Part shown: piece after piece, positions 11,519-61,903 of the stretch | How positions within the stretch are numbered: position 1 is the stretch's first letter | How the letters are laid out: each line of letters starts with the position of its first letter | From: Escherichia coli | GTDB lineage: Bacteria > Pseudomonadota > Gammaproteobacteria > Enterobacterales > Enterobacteriaceae | DNA length: 64,000 nucleotides | Reading direction: 5' to 3' (one strand) | Assembly (NCBI RefSeq): GCF_013315695.1 | Contig: NZ_CP054353.1 | The notes under the pieces: model-generated | The model's input: the letters and a program-made list of their open reading frames with translations, nothing else | Databases searched by the model: none | Told to the model about the DNA's origin: nothing | Program-made: the position numbers and the translations under genes

Positions 11519-12137
11519 AACTCGCCCTTTGTCATAGACGTGCTGCGTATTGTTCAGATAATGAGAATCCATTTGTATCATGAAGCACGGTTGTTTTGCG
11601 GTAGGTTAAGATCAAAATTGCGCTGATTAATCCTGGTTATCGGGAGATGCTCGGTGATAAAAAGCGAATTATCTCTCGCCGTAAACAAACTATCGCATGA
11701 ATATTATCACTATAATGAATTTGTTATTTGGCCTTTACGAGTCAGGATAATAGATAGCTGGGCGCGTTTTTTTATGTTAACAAGTTAAAACCATCAGATT
11801 TTATTGAATAAATATTGATTGTGTGATTCCCGCACTCTGCGGGAAGAGATATCATTTAATTATAAATTAAATGAATGAGATTTCTGTTTTTCATTAAGTA
11901 TTTCTAACAACTTAATGTAGATATTTTAAATGTCTCCAGGCTATTTCACCAGGTTATCATTTGATGCTAACCTTCTGACACATGCAGTGGAGTTGTTGTG
12001 CAGCAGGAGTATGCTGATATGAAAGTGAATGCTAAGGATAATTTATTCGCTTAATCTATTAATTTGCTGGAAATATTTAAGGAATGAATACCTTGAATAA
12101 ACCATCATGATTTTTAGACAGTGGATGTGGAGGAAAT

Positions 12138-13535: not shown

Positions 13536-14324
13536 TCATTTCAGCGTACAATCGCCACATTGCTGCACATCCGGTAAGCGATAACGCTGGCAGCAAGTGC
13601 GGCGCACCAGCAGGCCGTCGCGTAGCACCACGGTACGCCAGAGTGGATTATCTTCACCGGTAGTAAGCGTTTTCTCAAAAAAGAGGGCATAGCGCAGCGA
13701 TTCAACCGTCGCCTCGCCGAGCAGCTGTTTCATCTCAGTCAGATACCAGTTGATCAAATAACCGGTATTGCTCCAGATAAGTTTGCCGTTAATCTCTCCC
13801 GTTGCTTCTAGTGCCTGCACAACCGGAACCAGCGCCTGGCTGATTAACGTTTCCATTCGCTGCTGCAGCGAATGTAGTGTTGCGTTTTTATCTTCACACA
13901 CATCGACCCAGAAACAGGCGGCGCGTCCGGTTTCGTGAAACTCAACGTGGACATGTTCCGGCGACACATCTAATGCTTTTTCCTGAGTCAGCAGCGCCAG
14001 CATTAATGGTGGTACCATCAGGCCGATATACCATTGCGCCCACAGTGAGATCAGCGGTTTGTTTTCGCGGATCATCAAAGGTTGGTTGCGGTAGATATGA
14101 TCGGAATAGACTGCGAGTAGAGAACTTAGCGCATTAGGTGATGACCATTGCGCCAGCGTCATGGCGTTAAGTGGGGCGGGTTCATCCAGGCGGATAAACT
14201 CCAGCAAATGTTCACGATGTTCGGCGATCGTCGCCCGCACGGCTTGTGCAAGCCCAGCATCCTGCGGCTGGAGATGCGTTCGCCAGATAACATCTTCATA
14301 GAGCGGTGCGGAACGATAGGCCAT
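13536..14324 (-). CDS. fhuF: Ferric-siderophore reductase FhuF (2Fe-2S)
   Basis: 262-aa ORF ending with C-C-x10-C-x2-C cluster motif (CCQRYRLPDVQQCGDCTL). Confidence 0.9.
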   Translation of the reverse strand: MAYRSAPLYEDVIWRTHLQPQDAGLAQAVRATIAEHREHLLEFIRLDEPAPLNAMTLAQWSSPNALSSLLAVYSDHIYRNQPLMIRENKPLISLWAQWYIGLMVPPLMLALLTQEKALDVSPEHVHVEFHETGRAACFWVDVCEDKNATLHSLQQRMETLISQALVPVVQALEATGEINGKLIWSNTGYLINWYLTEMKQLLGEATVESLRYALFFEKTLTTGEDNPLWRTVVLRDGLLVRRTCCQRYRLPDVQQCGDCTLK

Positions 14325-14464: not shown

Positions 14465-14701
14465 ATGTTGCAACGTACGCTGGGCAGTGGCTGGGGAGTG
14501 TTGCTGCCGGGATTGCTGATTGCAGGGCTGATGTATGCGGATTTATCGCCGGATCAATGGCGGATTGTCATTCTGATGGGATTGGTATTGACGCCGGTGA
14601 TGCTGTATCACAAACAGTTACGGCATTACGTTTTGCTACCATCGTGCCTGGCGCTTATTGCTGGCATCATGCTGATGATAATGAATTTGAATCAGGGGTG
14701 A
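14465..14701 (+). CDS. yjjZ: Small membrane protein YjjZ
   Basis: 78-aa ORF from ATG 14465 (MLQRTLGSGWGVLLPGLLIAGLMY...); track ORF starts further upstream. Confidence 0.7.
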   Translation: MLQRTLGSGWGVLLPGLLIAGLMYADLSPDQWRIVILMGLVLTPVMLYHKQLRHYVLLPSCLALIAGIMLMIMNLNQG

Positions 14702-14739
14702 TAAAACAGTGAGGAGACAAGAAAAGAAGTAAAGATAAT

Positions 14740-14826
14740 TGGTGCGAGGGGGGGGACTTGAACCCCCACGTCCGTAAGGACACTAACACCTGAAGCTAGC
14801 GCGTCTACCAATTCCGCCACCTTCGC
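14740..14826 (-). tRNA. leuV: tRNA-Leu (CAG), tandem copy 1
   Basis: Reverse complement reads GCGAAGGTGGCGGAATTGGTAGACGCGCTAGCTTCAGGTGTTAGTGTCCTTACGGACGTGGGGGTTCAAGTCCCCCCCCTCGCACCA, 87 nt; gene-name assignment among the copies is arbitrary. Confidence 0.95.
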
Positions 14827-14860
14827 ACAGTCATCTTACTTTTTTTGATATCGCCTCGTT

Positions 14861-14947
14861 TGGTGCGAGGGGGGGGACTTGAACCCCCACGTCCGTAAGG
14901 ACACTAACACCTGAAGCTAGCGCGTCTACCAATTCCGCCACCTTCGC
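14861..14947 (-). tRNA. leuP: tRNA-Leu (CAG), tandem copy 2
   Basis: Identical 87-nt sequence and identical 34-bp spacer to copy 1. Confidence 0.95.
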
Positions 14948-14981
14948 ACAGTCATCTTACTTTTTTTGATATCGCCTCGTT

Positions 14982-15069
14982 TGGTGCGAGGGGGGGGGAC
15001 TTGAACCCCCACGTCCGTAAGGACACTAACACCTGAAGCTAGCGCCTCTACCAATTCCGCCACCTTCGC
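14982..15069 (-). tRNA. tRNA-Leu (CAG)-like, divergent tandem copy 3 (88 nt)
   Basis: Same unit but with a 9-C run instead of 8 in the T-stem/acceptor region and one D-arm substitution (GGTAGAGGCGC versus GGTAGACGCGC). Confidence 0.75.
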
Positions 15070-15097
15070 CCAGTGCGAGCAATATCAACGTGGTTTT

Positions 15098-15184
15098 TGG
15101 TGCGAGGGGGGGGACTTGAACCCCCACGTCCGTAAGGACACTAACACCTGAAGCTAGCGCGTCTACCAATTCCGCCACCTTCGC
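15098..15184 (-). tRNA. leuQ: tRNA-Leu (CAG), promoter-proximal copy 4
   Basis: Identical 87-nt tRNA-Leu sequence; 28-bp spacer to copy 3. Confidence 0.95.
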
Positions 15185-15225
15185 ATACCATCAATTCTTA
15201 AAAAGAATTGCTACCACGGAGGCGC

Positions 15226-15253
15226 ATTCTAGTGGTTTTCAGCTTTTCGTCAA
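15226..15253 (-). promoter_or_regulatory. Sigma-70 promoter of the tRNA-Leu operon with GC-rich discriminator
   Basis: Minus strand reads TTGACG-16 bp-TAGAAT followed by GCGCCTCC; an AT-rich tract lies further upstream. Confidence 0.65.
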
Positions 15254-15383
15254 TAGTTAATTATCGACAGAGGTGTAATTGCTGGAAAAATGTCCATCAG
15301 CGGATTGTGGATAATTCGTTTGTCGGTCAGATAAGGCATGTACGCCGCATCCGACACGGTATGCGGCGACATATATCAGATAC

Positions 15384-16415: not shown

Positions 16416-16517
16416 GGAATGCTCCTCAATTGATACTGGCGGCGATTATAGCCATATGTTGGCGCGGTATCGACGAATTTGCTATATTTGCGCCCCTGAC
16501 AACAGGAGCGATTCGCT

Positions 16518-21004: not shown

Positions 21005-21035
21005 ATTTCAGACCATTAAGAAAATTTTATCCAAA

Positions 21036-21058
21036 GCCAGTCCAGCGGACTGGCTTTT
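21036..21058 (+). terminator. Intrinsic terminator downstream of ytjA
   Basis: gccagtcc-agc-ggactggc stem followed by tttt. Confidence 0.6.
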
Positions 21059-47820: not shown

Positions 47821-47850
47821 AAAAACGGCGCTAAAAAGCGCCGTTTTTTT
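47821..47850. terminator. Bidirectional intrinsic terminator between creD and arcA
   Basis: aaaaacggcgctaaaaagcgccgttttttt: hairpin flanked by A-run and T-run. Confidence 0.8.
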
Positions 47851-55460: not shown

Positions 55461-55499
55461 ATATCAATGCCGGATTGCCATCCGGCATTGACTACAAAC

Positions 55500-59736: not shown

Positions 59737-61162
59737 TAATGCCAGTCAGTTAAGCAACTGACTGGCTCTTTTTCGGGGCTGTGGGGTATTTCCAGGGCCT
59801 CTCCTTTACCACTCTCGGGAAGGCCCTTTCCCTTCTTGTCGGTAATTTCACAAGTTGTCCCATACTTGCAAGATCGCGCATCAGCTCCGGTATACGTCCC
59901 GGTGAAGCGCCCTGCAATGTCATCAGCATTCTCATCACCATTCCGCATGATTCTGAGAAACTCAGTTGATTCGGCCAGTAACCTTTCAGATGTTCCGCCA
60001 TTTTAATCATCTGATATCTCACCAGATTATAAGCCAGTAAGACACCCCACAGCTCTTGCTCCACAAGCTCCGGTTTTTTACTTCTCAGCGTCAGCCTGCT
60101 CAGTTGCATCGTCTGTTTTATCTCCCTGTATCCCAGTTCGATTTCCCAGCGATGACTGTACAGATCCGCCATTTCTCCTCCGGGGAAGCGCATGGCGTCC
60201 GTCATCGACGTCAGCAGATGGCAGACTTTTCCTTTGCGCGTCACGGTCAGCAGGCGGGCTGTCACTTCATTTCCCAGTCCCGGCCACTTTTTTCGTGCCT
60301 GCGGGCTGGTTTTCAGCTTCACCAGATGATCGCCTTTACCCAGTTTTCTGATCTCTTCATATTGCGCTCCCTTTCTGAGAGGTATCATCCAGTGGCGGTG
60401 TTCTCCCGCCAGGCTCCAGGCATTTAACAGTCCCAGTGAGTAATAACCTTTATCCATTAACGTCAGAGTGTTATCGCCGGTTTGTTCTATAAGTTGCTCA
60501 GCAAGCTCATTTTCGCTGTTCTTCATCGTGCCGAAGGCTGCAGCCGTCAGCAGATGGCTGGTCAGTTCCATCTGGCAGACCATTTTGACCTGCGGGTAGA
60601 GCGCCGGGTTCCCGGCATGTGTCTGGCGGGGGAAGGCTGCATCGTTCTCTGGTGTATCCGGTGTGCGCCAGAACACACCATCGATGGCCAGCAGGGTCAG
60701 GCCGCACCAGTGCGGATGCGGCGTGGCGTTATGCCAGAGCTGCGCTGTTTTCGTGAACACGCGGCGGACAGCCTCACTTCCCAGGCGCTGGCGGGCCTGA
60801 ATAACGGCACTGGGGGCAACGAAGGGGCGATTGCCCGGCAGCATGATGTCCAGGCGATTCACAATCTGGTGAAGAGGTTCTTTACGCTCAAGCGCCATGC
60901 CAACAATACACCAGACCATCATTTCGAGGGGAAGACGGCGCTTGCGTAGCGTTACAGTACCTGATTCGGCAAGGCAACGAGAGATGAGTTCGGGGTCGAG
61001 GTAATCCCCCAGAGAAGTCAGTGGGTTACGCAGAGAATCGTAACGGGATACCAGATCAAGAGCCTGTCCAATGTGCATAAAAAAATCCGGAAACAAGTGA
61101 GCGTTTCCGGATTCTTACACAGCCACTGGATCGGTCAACTGATCCTTAACTGATCGGCATTA
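59737..61162 (-). mobile_element. IS4 insertion sequence, complete (1426 bp), flanked by 12-bp direct repeats
   Basis: 18-bp terminal inverted repeats taatgccagtcagttaag / cttaactgatcggcatta; identical 12-mer ccccgggcgggg at 59725-59736 and 61163-61174. Confidence 0.9.
59750..61078 (-). CDS. insG: IS4 transposase (DDE, IS4 family)
   Basis: 442-aa from [16 protein letters not shown]...; contains HRWEIE...YREIK motif of IS4-family transposases. Confidence 0.9.
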
Positions 61163-61755: not shown

Positions 61756-61903
61756 AATTCCTCAAAAATCATCATCGAATGAATGGTGAAATAATTTCCC
61801 TGAATAACTGTAGTGTTTTCAGGGCGCGGCATAATAATCAGCCAGTGGGGCAGTGTCTACGATCTTTTGAAGGGAAAATGAAAATTTTCCCCGGTTTCCG
61901 GTA

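What the first reader, a model, noticed from the sequence alone, without database searches (positions are those of the whole stretch)
15185..15300. Stringent-type promoter driving the tRNA-Leu array
On the minus strand, TTGACG-16 bp-TAGAAT is followed by the GC-rich discriminator GCGCCTCC and preceded by an AT-rich tract, the classical architecture of growth-rate and ppGpp-regulated stable-RNA promoters. A short palindrome (caattctttttaagaattg) lies between the promoter and the first tRNA.
Basis: partly seen in the sequence, partly recalled or inferred. Interest (0 to 1): 0.2.

Follow-up and report, generated by a model that had tools for sequence, protein, structure and literature searches.

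The report
Known leuV (leuQPV) tRNA-Leu operon promoter
This is the well-studied, Fis-activated and starvation-sensitive promoter of the E. coli leucine-tRNA operon leuQ-leuP-leuV, so it is ordinary, although the small palindrome after it turns out to be an RNA hairpin conserved by compensating mutations across enteric bacteria.

Summary
On the minus strand, TTGACG (15253-15248), a 16-bp spacer, TAGAAT (15231-15226) and GCGCCTCC (15225-15218) precede a 33-nt leader and four tRNA-Leu(CAG) genes.

The locus is the E. coli leuQ-leuP-leuV ("leuV") operon, between rsmC and yjjZ. From -83 to the first tRNA it is identical to K-12, where this promoter is a published model of Fis-activated, growth-rate- and stringently controlled stable-RNA transcription.

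New here: in 102 Enterobacterales species the following blocks are invariant or nearly so:
- a T-tract at -73..-70, the centre of the Fis site;
- an A/T block at -45..-37;
- the -35 hexamer and the 16-bp spacer length;
- AAAA at -22..-19;
- the -10 hexamer, the discriminator and +1 GTGGT.

The leader palindrome changes sequence between genera but stays a hairpin. All 8 pairs show compensatory changes, and G·U outnumbers A·C 48 to 9. It is therefore a selected RNA structure, and its function is not established.

Side notes:
- The array has four copies here, against three in K-12 and one in another strain.
- The second copy carries two lesions.

Interest is low.

The parts
15281..15295 (-). Fis site I, GGACATTTTTCCAGC, centred at -71 relative to the start site
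   Evidence: The sequence has G at position 1, C at position 15 and an A/T centre. The T-tract at -73..-70 is 92-99% conserved in 102 Enterobacterales species, G at -78 in 62% and C at -64 in 58%. [quoted passage not shown] The '-71' centre of Ross et al. 1999 is recalled from its abstract; that paper is not held.
15254..15262 (-). Conserved A/T block AATTAACTA at -45..-37, resembling a proximal UP-element subsite
   Evidence: The consensus is AAWTAACTR. Positions -45 and -42 are invariant, and -44 and -41 are conserved in at least 94% of 102 species. A role as an alpha-CTD contact is inferred and was not tested.
15248..15253 (-). -35 hexamer TTGACG
   Evidence: TTGAC is invariant and G at -31 is 94% conserved in 102 species, although the search pattern did not require a -35 element.
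15232..15247 (-). 16-bp spacer AAAAGCTGAAAACCAC, with conserved AAAA at -22..-19 (15239-15236) and C at -15 (15232)
   Evidence: The spacer is 16 bp in all 102 species. AAAA is 99-100% conserved and C at -15 is 100% conserved. The upstream half of the spacer is variable.
15226..15231 (-). -10 hexamer TAGAAT
   Evidence: The search pattern forced T, A and T. The other three positions were free and are 87-100% conserved.
15218..15225 (-). GC-rich discriminator GCGCCTCC, 8 bp between the -10 hexamer and the start site
   Evidence: It is 7/8 G+C and 7/8 identical to the rrnB P1 discriminator GCGCCACC. Six of its 8 positions are invariant in 102 species; -3 is 95% and -8 is 79% conserved.
15217..15217 (-). 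Transcription start, G (+1), followed by TGGT
   Evidence: PMC2965240 defines the leuV 5' leader as +1 to +33, which places +1 at 15184+33. GTGGT at +1..+5 is 98-100% conserved. My recollection of the Ross 1999 abstract is that GTP and UTP are the first two nucleotides. The start was not mapped in this strain.
15185..15217 (-). 33-nt 5' leader of the primary transcript, removed by RNase P
   Evidence: A leader probe detects the unprocessed QPV, QP and pQ precursors only in the rnpA49 mutant (PMC2190699). Leader length is 26-50 nt, with a mode of 33, across species.
15192..15210 (-). Leader RNA hairpin at +8..+26: CAAUUCUU-UUU-AAGAAUUG
   Evidence: The whole 33-nt leader (15185-15217), whose minimum-energy fold contains this hairpin, folds at -6.9 kcal/mol. 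A hairpin is present in all 102 orthologous leaders, 82 of them unique, with different sequences. In the model-based alignment, 86% of cells are paired against 31-49% when the partners are slid, 8 of 8 pairs show double changes, and there are 79 double-change cells against 28 +/- 9 in shuffles. G·U outnumbers A·C 48 to 9, and the sense strand is more stable than the antisense in 75 of 82 leaders.
15098..15184 (-). tRNA-Leu(CAG) copy 1, the leuQ equivalent
   Evidence: ARAGORN; Rfam tRNA model 48.5 bits.
14982..15069 (-). tRNA-Leu(CAG) copy 2, a variant of 88 nt with a C-to-G change in the D-arm and 9 C's instead of 8
   Evidence: The Rfam score drops to 33.2 bits. The exact sequence was found only in strain MSB1_4I among complete E. 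coli genomes.
14861..14947 (-). tRNA-Leu(CAG) copy 3
   Evidence: It is flanked on both sides by the same 34-nt spacer, which indicates duplication of a 121-bp unit.
14740..14826 (-). tRNA-Leu(CAG) copy 4, the leuV equivalent
14640..14739 (-). C-rich, G-poor stretch downstream of the array, with no terminator hairpin; the presumed Rho-dependent termination zone, antisense to the 3' end of yjjZ
   Evidence: There are 27 C and 13 G in these 100 nt. No minus-strand intrinsic terminator is predicted here. PMC2190699 describes a Rho-dependent terminator after leuV.

Best explanation
The segment 15185-15300 (minus strand) is the sigma-70 promoter and leader of the E. coli leuQ-leuP-leuV tRNA-Leu(CAG) operon, known in the literature as the leuV promoter.

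Proposed mechanism:
1. RNA polymerase binds a near-consensus -35 hexamer (TTGACG) and a -10 hexamer (TAGAAT) separated by a suboptimal 16-bp spacer.
2. The GC-rich 8-bp discriminator GCGCCTCC makes the open complex short-lived. Initiation at G15217 therefore depends on the initiating NTP concentration and is inhibited by ppGpp/DksA, which gives stringent and growth-rate control.
3. Fis bound at a site centred at -71 activates transcription. A short A/T block at -45..-37 probably adds an alpha-CTD contact.
4. The transcript begins with a 33-nt leader whose nucleotides +8..+26 form an RNA hairpin. It continues through four tRNA genes (three in K-12) and ends by Rho-dependent termination.
5. RNase P alone separates the tRNAs and removes the leader.

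Shown here: the sequence elements, identity to K-12, deep conservation of every promoter module, and covariation in the hairpin.

Taken from the literature on the identical K-12 sequence: Fis activation, stringent and growth-rate control, leader length, RNase P processing and Rho-dependent termination.

Inferred: the role of the -45..-37 block and any function of the hairpin. My best guess for the hairpin is that it keeps the leader folded on itself. That would stop the leader mispairing with the nascent tRNA, make it a poor RNase E substrate, and leave a single-stranded linker of about 7 nt in front of the RNase P site.
For: Identity of the locus:
- Megablast finds it in 5425 of 5426 complete E. 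coli genomes, annotated rsmC | tRNA-Leu | yjjZ.
- The window is 100% identical to K-12 from -83 to the tRNA.
- The core promoter and leader are invariant in six diverse strains, apart from one strain with two changes.

Architecture:
- Searches show the elements.
- The combined pattern is unique in the window, against 0.02 expected.
- It aligns without gaps to rrnB P1, with the same spacer length and C at -15, and discriminators GCGCCTCC and GCGCCACC.

Conservation:
- 102 of 102 enterobacterial first-in-array sites keep TTGAC(G)-16-TA(G)AAT-(G)CGCC(T)CC-GTGGT, the T-tract of the Fis site and the -45..-37 block.
- 84 of the 102 have rsmC directly upstream. About 10 more have it roughly 2.2 kb upstream.

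Literature:
- leuV 5' region -112..+33, with -35, -10 and a Fis element (PMC2965240).
- Fis site about 70 nt upstream of the start site, Fis-mediated duplex destabilisation, and strong single-strandedness of the leuQ start-site region in vivo (PMC9122604).
- Citations of Pokholok 1999, Ross 1999 and Rowley 1993.
- RNase P-only processing, an intact leader in precursors, and a Rho-dependent terminator (PMC2190699).

Hairpin.
Against: - No transcription start mapping, ppGpp response or Fis binding was measured for this strain.
- The primary papers on leuV regulation are not in the held library. The stringent-control claim therefore rests on titles, secondary citations and my recollection.
- Searches of two Cappable-seq supplements for the expected K-12 start coordinates found nothing, possibly because the stored files are truncated.
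- The upstream A/T block is much weaker than the rrnB P1 UP element.
- The conservation sample was conditioned on T, A and T of the -10 hexamer and on a gap of 36-48 nt between the -10 hexamer and the tRNA. The scan also stopped at 120 rows.
- The sequences are related by descent, so the shuffle statistics overstate significance.
- The hairpin alignment was fitted to the model structure.
Confidence: 0.93

Rival explanations
1. The tRNA array is transcribed mainly by read-through from the upstream rsmC gene, which has a promoter-like site at 16473. On this reading the TTGACG/TAGAAT match is incidental.
For: rsmC lies on the same strand and ends 199 bp upstream. No intrinsic terminator is predicted between rsmC and the tRNAs, only a REP-like element.
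Against: Every promoter module is conserved at single-base resolution in 102 species, while the flanking sequence from -58 to -46 and upstream of -80 is free to vary. The K-12 literature uses -112..+33 as a self-sufficient strong promoter. In about 10 genera another gene lies between rsmC and the array, yet the promoter is retained.
Confidence: 0.04
2. The palindrome at 15192-15210 works at the DNA level. It would be an operator for a dimeric regulator, or a cruciform that modulates the supercoiling-sensitive promoter.
For: In E. coli the inverted repeat is perfect, 8+8 bp, and lies immediately downstream of the start site. That is a typical operator position. The promoter is known to respond to superhelical destabilisation.
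Against: The arm sequences differ between genera while pairing is kept, so no conserved recognition sequence exists. Non-Watson-Crick positions are G·U 48 against A·C 9, and the sense RNA is more stable than the antisense in 75 of 82 leaders. That asymmetry is expected only for an RNA structure on the transcribed sense strand.
Confidence: 0.04
3. The leader hairpin is part of an rrn-like antitermination signal (boxB hairpin plus boxA) that protects the untranslated tRNA transcript from Rho.
For: By eye, the E. coli loop region TTCTTTTTAAGAA resembles the boxA consensus TGCTCTTTAACAA at 10 of 13 positions. The operon is untranslated and ends at a Rho-dependent terminator.
Against: The boxA-like similarity is absent in Citrobacter, Enterobacter, Serratia, Pantoea and others, whose hairpins have unrelated sequences. 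Only the pairing is conserved, not the sequence.
Confidence: 0.04
4. The palindrome is a chance inverted repeat with no function.
For: About 6 perfect 8-bp hairpins are expected per shuffled 64-kb window. The E. coli leader fold z-score is only -2.3, and 7 of 200 shuffles fold as well.
Against: A hairpin of 5-12 bp is found at the same place in 81 of 82 unique leaders from 102 species (the exception, Pluralibacter gergoviae L055, folds no better than its shuffles). There are compensatory changes at all 8 pairs, and pairing is 86% against 31-49% in the slid controls.
Confidence: 0.03

Closest known systems
E. coli K-12 leuQ-leuP-leuV ('leuV') promoter (Duester 1981; Bauer 1988; Ross 1999; Pokholok 1999; Opel 2004)
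   Same: The sequence is identical from -83 to the first tRNA. The genomic context is the same, rsmC | tRNA-Leu | yjjZ. The 33-nt leader is the same.
   Different: The window has four tRNA-Leu(CAG) genes instead of three, because a 121-bp tRNA-plus-spacer unit is duplicated. Its second copy is mutated. It lacks an insertion of about 72 bp that K-12 carries between rsmC and position -84.
rrnB P1, the archetypal stringent and growth-rate-regulated rRNA promoter
   Same: Both have a 16-bp spacer, C at -15, a -10 hexamer of the form TA(G/T)AAT, 8 bp between the -10 hexamer and +1, and 7/8 identical discriminators (GCGCCTCC and GCGCCACC). Both are activated by Fis from a site near -71, which rests on my own knowledge.
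   Different: The leuV promoter has a better -35 (TTGACG against TTGTCA) and a weaker -10 (TAGAAT against TATAAT). It starts with G rather than A. It has only a short proximal A/T block instead of the full -60..-40 UP element. It drives a tRNA array rather than an rRNA operon.
Other Fis-dependent stringent tRNA promoters (tyrT, argX/pArgX, thrU(tufB))
   Same: These are stable-RNA promoters with G+C-rich discriminators. They are inhibited during the stringent response and have upstream activating sequences (PMC5137449; otherwise my own knowledge).
   Different: They are different operons with different sequences. pArgX shows an atypical, DksA-activated behaviour, so the details of regulation cannot be transferred between tRNA promoters without testing.
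5'-terminal stem-loops that stabilise bacterial transcripts against RNase E (for example the ompA 5' UTR hairpin), and structured pre-tRNA leaders
   Same: Each is a hairpin close to the 5' end of a primary transcript. leuQPV precursors keep an intact leader and are very stable when RNase P is inactive, whereas the valV-valW leader is cut by RNase E.
   Different: The leader is normally removed within seconds by RNase P, so a stabilising role would matter only briefly. No experiment links this hairpin to stability. The comparison rests on my own knowledge of ompA and is an analogy only.

Membership tests
E. coli leuQPV (leuV) operon promoter | Located between rsmC and yjjZ, directly upstream of a tandem tRNA-Leu(CAG) array | tested here: met
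   ORFs and annotation of identical or near-identical genomes; four tRNA-Leu(CAG) genes.
E. coli leuQPV (leuV) operon promoter | Sequence identity with the characterised K-12 promoter fragment (-112..+33) | tested here: met
   100% identity from -83 to +33 and into the tRNA. Upstream of -84 the strains differ by an insertion or deletion of about 72 bp.
E. coli leuQPV (leuV) operon promoter | Three tRNA-Leu1 genes (leuQ, leuP, leuV) | tested here: not met
   The window has four copies. Copy number varies within E. coli: one in strain 136, three in K-12 and CFT073, four here. This is copy-number variation of the same operon, not a different locus.
Stringent / growth-rate-regulated stable-RNA promoter (rrnB P1 class) | Sigma-70 hexamers with a suboptimal 16-bp spacer | tested here: met
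   TTGACG-16-TAGAAT; the spacer is 16 bp in 102 of 102 species.
Stringent / growth-rate-regulated stable-RNA promoter (rrnB P1 class) | G+C-rich discriminator between the -10 hexamer and +1 | tested here: met
   GCGCCTCC is 7/8 G+C and 7/8 identical to rrnB P1. It is nearly invariant across Enterobacterales.
Stringent / growth-rate-regulated stable-RNA promoter (rrnB P1 class) | Start site 8 nt downstream of the -10 hexamer; short-lived, iNTP-dependent open complex | not testable with these tools
   The start at G15217 follows from the published 33-nt leader. The kinetic properties are recalled from the Ross 1999 abstract, which is not held.
Stringent / growth-rate-regulated stable-RNA promoter (rrnB P1 class) | Transcription inhibited by ppGpp/DksA on amino-acid starvation and scaled with growth rate | not testable with these tools
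   Only the titles and citations of Pokholok 1999 and Rowley 1993 were seen. The claim is inferred for this strain from sequence identity.
Stringent / growth-rate-regulated stable-RNA promoter (rrnB P1 class) | Upstream activation by Fis and/or a UP element | tested here: inconclusive
   A Fis-consensus-like 15-mer centred at -71 has a T-tract that is 92-99% conserved. Secondary literature reports a Fis site about 70 nt upstream. Binding was not measured. The UP-like block is short.
Rfam RNA families (for the leader hairpin) | Match to a curated covariance model | tested here: not met
   Only tRNA (RF00005) matches, plus a sub-threshold naRNA4/REP hit upstream. Nothing covers 15185-15217.

The most novel reading that the evidence does not exclude
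The leader palindrome is a selected RNA hairpin of the leuQPV primary transcript, maintained by compensatory substitutions throughout the Enterobacterales. It sits 4-9 nt (typically 7) upstream of the RNase P cleavage site. It would have an as yet undescribed role in pre-tRNA biogenesis. Candidate roles are insulating the leader from the folding tRNA, shielding it from RNase E so that the operon follows its unusual RNase P-only pathway, or helping promoter escape. I found no description of it in the papers I could read.
Probability: 0.4. Interest if true: 0.3.

Novelty: already known. Interest (0 to 1): 0.12.

Why it matters
The promoter itself adds nothing new. It is a textbook-grade model for Fis activation, supercoiling transmission and stringent control of tRNA synthesis, and it is already used in expression vectors.

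Two by-products are modestly useful:
- A single-base phylogenetic footprint of the promoter across about 100 enterobacterial species. It independently recovers the Fis site centre, the -35 and -10 hexamers, the discriminator and the initial transcribed sequence. It also flags two conserved blocks that I did not find discussed in the papers I could read: AAAA at -22..-19 and AAWTAACTR at -45..-37.
- Evidence that the leader hairpin is under selection as an RNA structure. This could bear on the open question of why this operon is processed by RNase P alone.

Tried and rejected
1. Reading the primary leuV papers (Ross 1999, Pokholok 1999, Duester 1981) and Sanchez-Vazquez 2019. None is held, so regulation rests on secondary citations and recollection.

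2. Looking for the K-12 start-site coordinates (4606434 and 4604457) or leuQ in the Cappable-seq and SMRT-Cappable-seq supplements. Nothing was found. The stored files are small and probably truncated, so this is uninformative.

3. Rfam search of the region. There is no family for the leader.

4. The MAFFT alignment of leaders (A3). It misplaced the 3' arms of divergent genera, so I rebuilt the alignment with a covariance model (R1 and A4).

5. The boxA/boxB antitermination idea. The resemblance holds in E. coli only and is not conserved, so I rejected it.

6. The DNA operator or cruciform reading of the palindrome. I rejected it because of the G·U against A·C asymmetry and the sense against antisense stability difference.

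7. The matches from MAGs labelled Betaproteobacteria, Burkholderiales, Nitrosomonas and Nitrospinales in the genome scan. Their upstream regions are unrelated, and I excluded them as non-orthologous.

8. The identity-band counts. They could not be read as copy-number frequencies, so I used only the ranked rows.

9. An alternative overlapping promoter-like site, TTTCCA-17-GATAAT at 15288-15260 (9/12). It overlaps the Fis site and its hexamers are not conserved as such, so I treated it as a chance match.

Full report
**Observation.**
- TTGACG at 15253-15248.
- A 16-bp spacer, AAAAGCTGAAAACCAC.
- TAGAAT at 15231-15226.
- GCGCCTCC at 15225-15218.
- A 33-nt stretch, GTGGTAGCAATTCTTTTTAAGAATTGATGGTAT.
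- The first of four tRNA-Leu(CAG) genes, at 15184-15098, 15069-14982, 14947-14861 and 14826-14740.

The palindrome CAATTCTT-TTT-AAGAATTG lies at 15210-15192. The generic promoter scan lists the site at 10/12.

Neither part is beyond chance on its own.
- A 10/12 match is not rare: the window holds 6 such sites, against 7.6 +/- 2.7 in shuffles.
- The combined -35/-10/discriminator pattern is unique in the window, against 0.02 expected.
- About 6 perfect 8-bp hairpins are expected per shuffled window, and the leader fold z-score is -2.3.

What makes both features real is their context and conservation.

**Identity.** The 851-bp region matches 5425 of 5426 complete E. coli genomes, annotated rsmC | tRNA-Leu | yjjZ. 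The 116-bp finding itself matches 5424 of 5426 genomes at 93-100% identity. In K-12 MG1655 the genes are leuQ, leuP and leuV. The window is 100% identical to K-12 from -83 through the leader and into the tRNA. Upstream of that, K-12 carries an extra insertion of about 72 bp.

Among six diverse strains, all variation lies upstream of about -47. The exception is one strain with a spacer G-to-A change and an extra T in the hairpin loop. An exact match to the whole region, including a mutated second tRNA copy, exists only in strain MSB1_4I.

**What is known about it.** The primary papers are not in the held library, so I rely on secondary sources.
[quoted passage not shown] It keeps +1..+33 as the natural processing sequence. 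This places +1 at G15217, 8 nt after the -10 hexamer.
- PMC9122604 reports a Fis site about 70 nt upstream of the leuQ start site. It summarises Opel 2004, in which Fis binding transmits superhelical destabilisation to the promoter. It also finds the leuQ start-site region to be one of only two E. coli sites hit by both AID and APOBEC3A, which marks it as strongly single-stranded in vivo. PMC1468432 and PMC3035224 say the same about Fis.
- From my own memory of the Ross 1999 abstract: Fis binds a site centred at -71, RNA polymerase forms an unusual heparin-sensitive complex, and GTP and UTP are the first two nucleotides.

The window fits the last point. No minus-strand terminator is predicted after the final tRNA, and the next 100 nt hold 27 C against 13 G.

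**Architecture compared with rrnB P1.** I fetched K-12 rrnB P1 and aligned it. The two promoters align without gaps.
- Both have a 16-bp spacer and C at -15.
- The -10 hexamers are TAGAAT and TATAAT.
- The discriminators are GCGCCTCC and GCGCCACC.
- Both have 8 bp between the -10 hexamer and +1.
- leuV has the better -35 (TTGACG against TTGTCA) and only a short A/T block where rrnB P1 has its full UP element.

**Phylogenetic footprint.** One scan of the species-representative genome collection used the first 23 nt of the tRNA plus TANNNT placed 36-48 nt upstream. Only T, A and T of the -10 hexamer were forced.

After removing internal array copies, leuT copies that follow hisR, and unrelated MAGs labelled Betaproteobacteria, Burkholderiales, Nitrosomonas or Nitrospinales, 102 Enterobacterales species remained. 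All 102 have the same promoter. In 84 of them an RsmC homologue of 65-98% identity ends a median of about 170 nt upstream. In about 10 more it lies roughly 2.2 kb upstream.

The ungapped profile anchored on +1 shows these conserved blocks:
- T-tract at -73..-70, 92-99% conserved. This is exactly the centre of the 15-mer GGACATTTTTCCAGC (15295-15281), which has the Fis-consensus G and C at its ends.
- AAWTAACTR at -45..-37.
- TTGACG at -36..-31.
- AAAA at -22..-19.
- C at -15.
- TAGAAT.
- GCGCCTCC.
- GTGGT at +1..+5.

The spacer is always 16 bp. Positions -58..-46, -30..-23 and everything upstream of -80 are free to vary. An Aeromonas locus keeps the core promoter (TTGACG-16-TAGAAT-GCCCCTCC) but has only an 8-nt leader.

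**The palindrome is a conserved RNA hairpin.** The leader sequence differs between genera, yet a hairpin persists.
- E. coli: GCAATTCTT/AAGAATTG.
- Citrobacter: ACGATACT/AGTATCGA.
- Serratia: GCGTTAC/GTAACGT.
- Brenneria: CATCGCG/CGCGATG.
- Sodalis: CAGGC/GCCTG.

All 102 leaders, 82 of them unique, fold into a hairpin. The mean free energy is -9.4 kcal/mol and the mean z-score is -2.8. A stricter search for a contiguous stem of at least 5 bp found one in 81 of the 82 unique leaders; the exception is Pluralibacter gergoviae (L055), whose leader folds no better than its shuffles.

MAFFT misaligned the 3' arms of divergent genera. I therefore built a covariance model and realigned 78 matches. On that alignment:
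- 86% of cells are paired, against 31-49% when the partners are slid by 1-3 columns.
- All 8 pairs show changes on both sides.
- There are 79 double-change cells, against 28 +/- 9 in shuffles (0 of 500 shuffles reach the observed value).

Non-Watson-Crick stem cells are G·U 48 times and A·C 9 times. The sense RNA is more stable than the antisense in 75 of 82 leaders. This points to an RNA-level structure rather than a DNA operator or cruciform.

Stems are 5-12 bp and loops mostly 3-7 nt. The hairpin ends 4-9 nt (mode 7, usually AUGGUAU) before the RNase P site. Rfam has no family for it, and I found no discussion of it in the processing papers I could read.

Caveats:
- The sequences are related by descent.
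- The alignment was fitted to the model.
- The model's E-values are rough.

The function is not established. My best guess is that the hairpin keeps the leader from mispairing with the nascent tRNA and from RNase E attack. This is consistent with the intact leader seen in rnpA49 precursors, in contrast to the valV-valW leader, which RNase E cuts.

**Rivals.**
- Read-through from rsmC as the main source is unlikely, given the base-by-base conservation of a complete promoter and its retention where another gene separates rsmC from the array.
- A DNA-level role for the palindrome is contradicted.
- An rrn-like boxA/boxB signal is contradicted by the lack of sequence conservation.
- Chance is contradicted.

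**Verdict.** The feature is the already characterised leuV (leuQPV) promoter, so novelty is 'already known' and interest is low (0.12). The residual novelty lies in the covarying leader hairpin and the two conserved spacer and upstream blocks.

Noticed in passing
window 14740-15184 (minus strand): The array has four tRNA-Leu(CAG) genes, against three in K-12 and CFT073 and one in E. coli strain 136. The spacers are 28, 34 and 34 nt, so a 121-bp tRNA-plus-spacer unit has been duplicated. Only about 9 of the complete E. coli genomes listed show a single-piece match to two consecutive 34-nt-spacer units.
   Followed up: partly
window 14982-15069 (minus strand): The second tRNA copy is 88 nt. It has a C-to-G change in the D-arm (TAGAGGCGC) and a run of 9 C's instead of 8. 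Its Rfam tRNA score falls from 48.5 to 33.2 bits. The exact sequence was seen only in strain MSB1_4I. It could be a decaying redundant copy or a homopolymer or assembly error.
   Followed up: partly
window 15320-15370, and K-12 locus L003: A REP-like palindromic element (GCCGCATACCGTGTCGGATGCGGCG) lies between the rsmC stop codon and the promoter, and gives a weak sub-threshold naRNA4 match. K-12 carries an additional insertion of about 72 bp here, ending at -84.
   Followed up: partly
window 16445-16473 (minus strand): A promoter-like site, TCGATA-17-TATAAT (10/12), is followed by a GC-rich discriminator (CGCCGCCA). It lies just upstream of the rsmC start (16415), in the divergent holD-rsmC intergenic region. 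It may be the rsmC promoter.
   Followed up: no
window about 61830-61859 (minus strand): This is the third site in the window that combines a 10/12 sigma-70 match (TAGACA-17-TATTAT) with an all-G+C discriminator (GCCGCGCC). The window has three such sites, against 0.47 expected.
   Followed up: no
window 15236-15239 and 15232 (minus strand); loci L007-L126: AAAA at -22..-19 and C at -15 in the promoter spacer are 99-100% conserved across 102 Enterobacterales species, while the rest of the spacer varies. rrnB P1 has a similar (T)AA(C)..C.C pattern. No explanation was tested.
   Followed up: no
locus L033 (Aeromonas sp. RU39B), around position 1274: The core promoter is the same (TTGACG-16-TAGAAT-GCCCCTCC), but the leader is only 8 nt and has no hairpin. 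The hairpin therefore appears to be specific to the Enterobacterales.
   Followed up: no
window 14465-14701 (plus strand) against 14640-14739 (minus strand): yjjZ (DUF1435) converges on the tRNA array, and its stop codon is 38 nt from the last tRNA. Rho-dependent termination of the array must therefore occur antisense to the 3' end of yjjZ.
   Followed up: no
window 11827-11874, 13854-13874, 21034-21056, 47823-47846, 55466-55489, 59742-59765 and others: The window holds about 20 distinct perfect inverted repeats of at least 8 bp with loops of 3-8 nt, against about 6 in shuffles. They are probably terminators and REP elements. None was examined.
   Followed up: no
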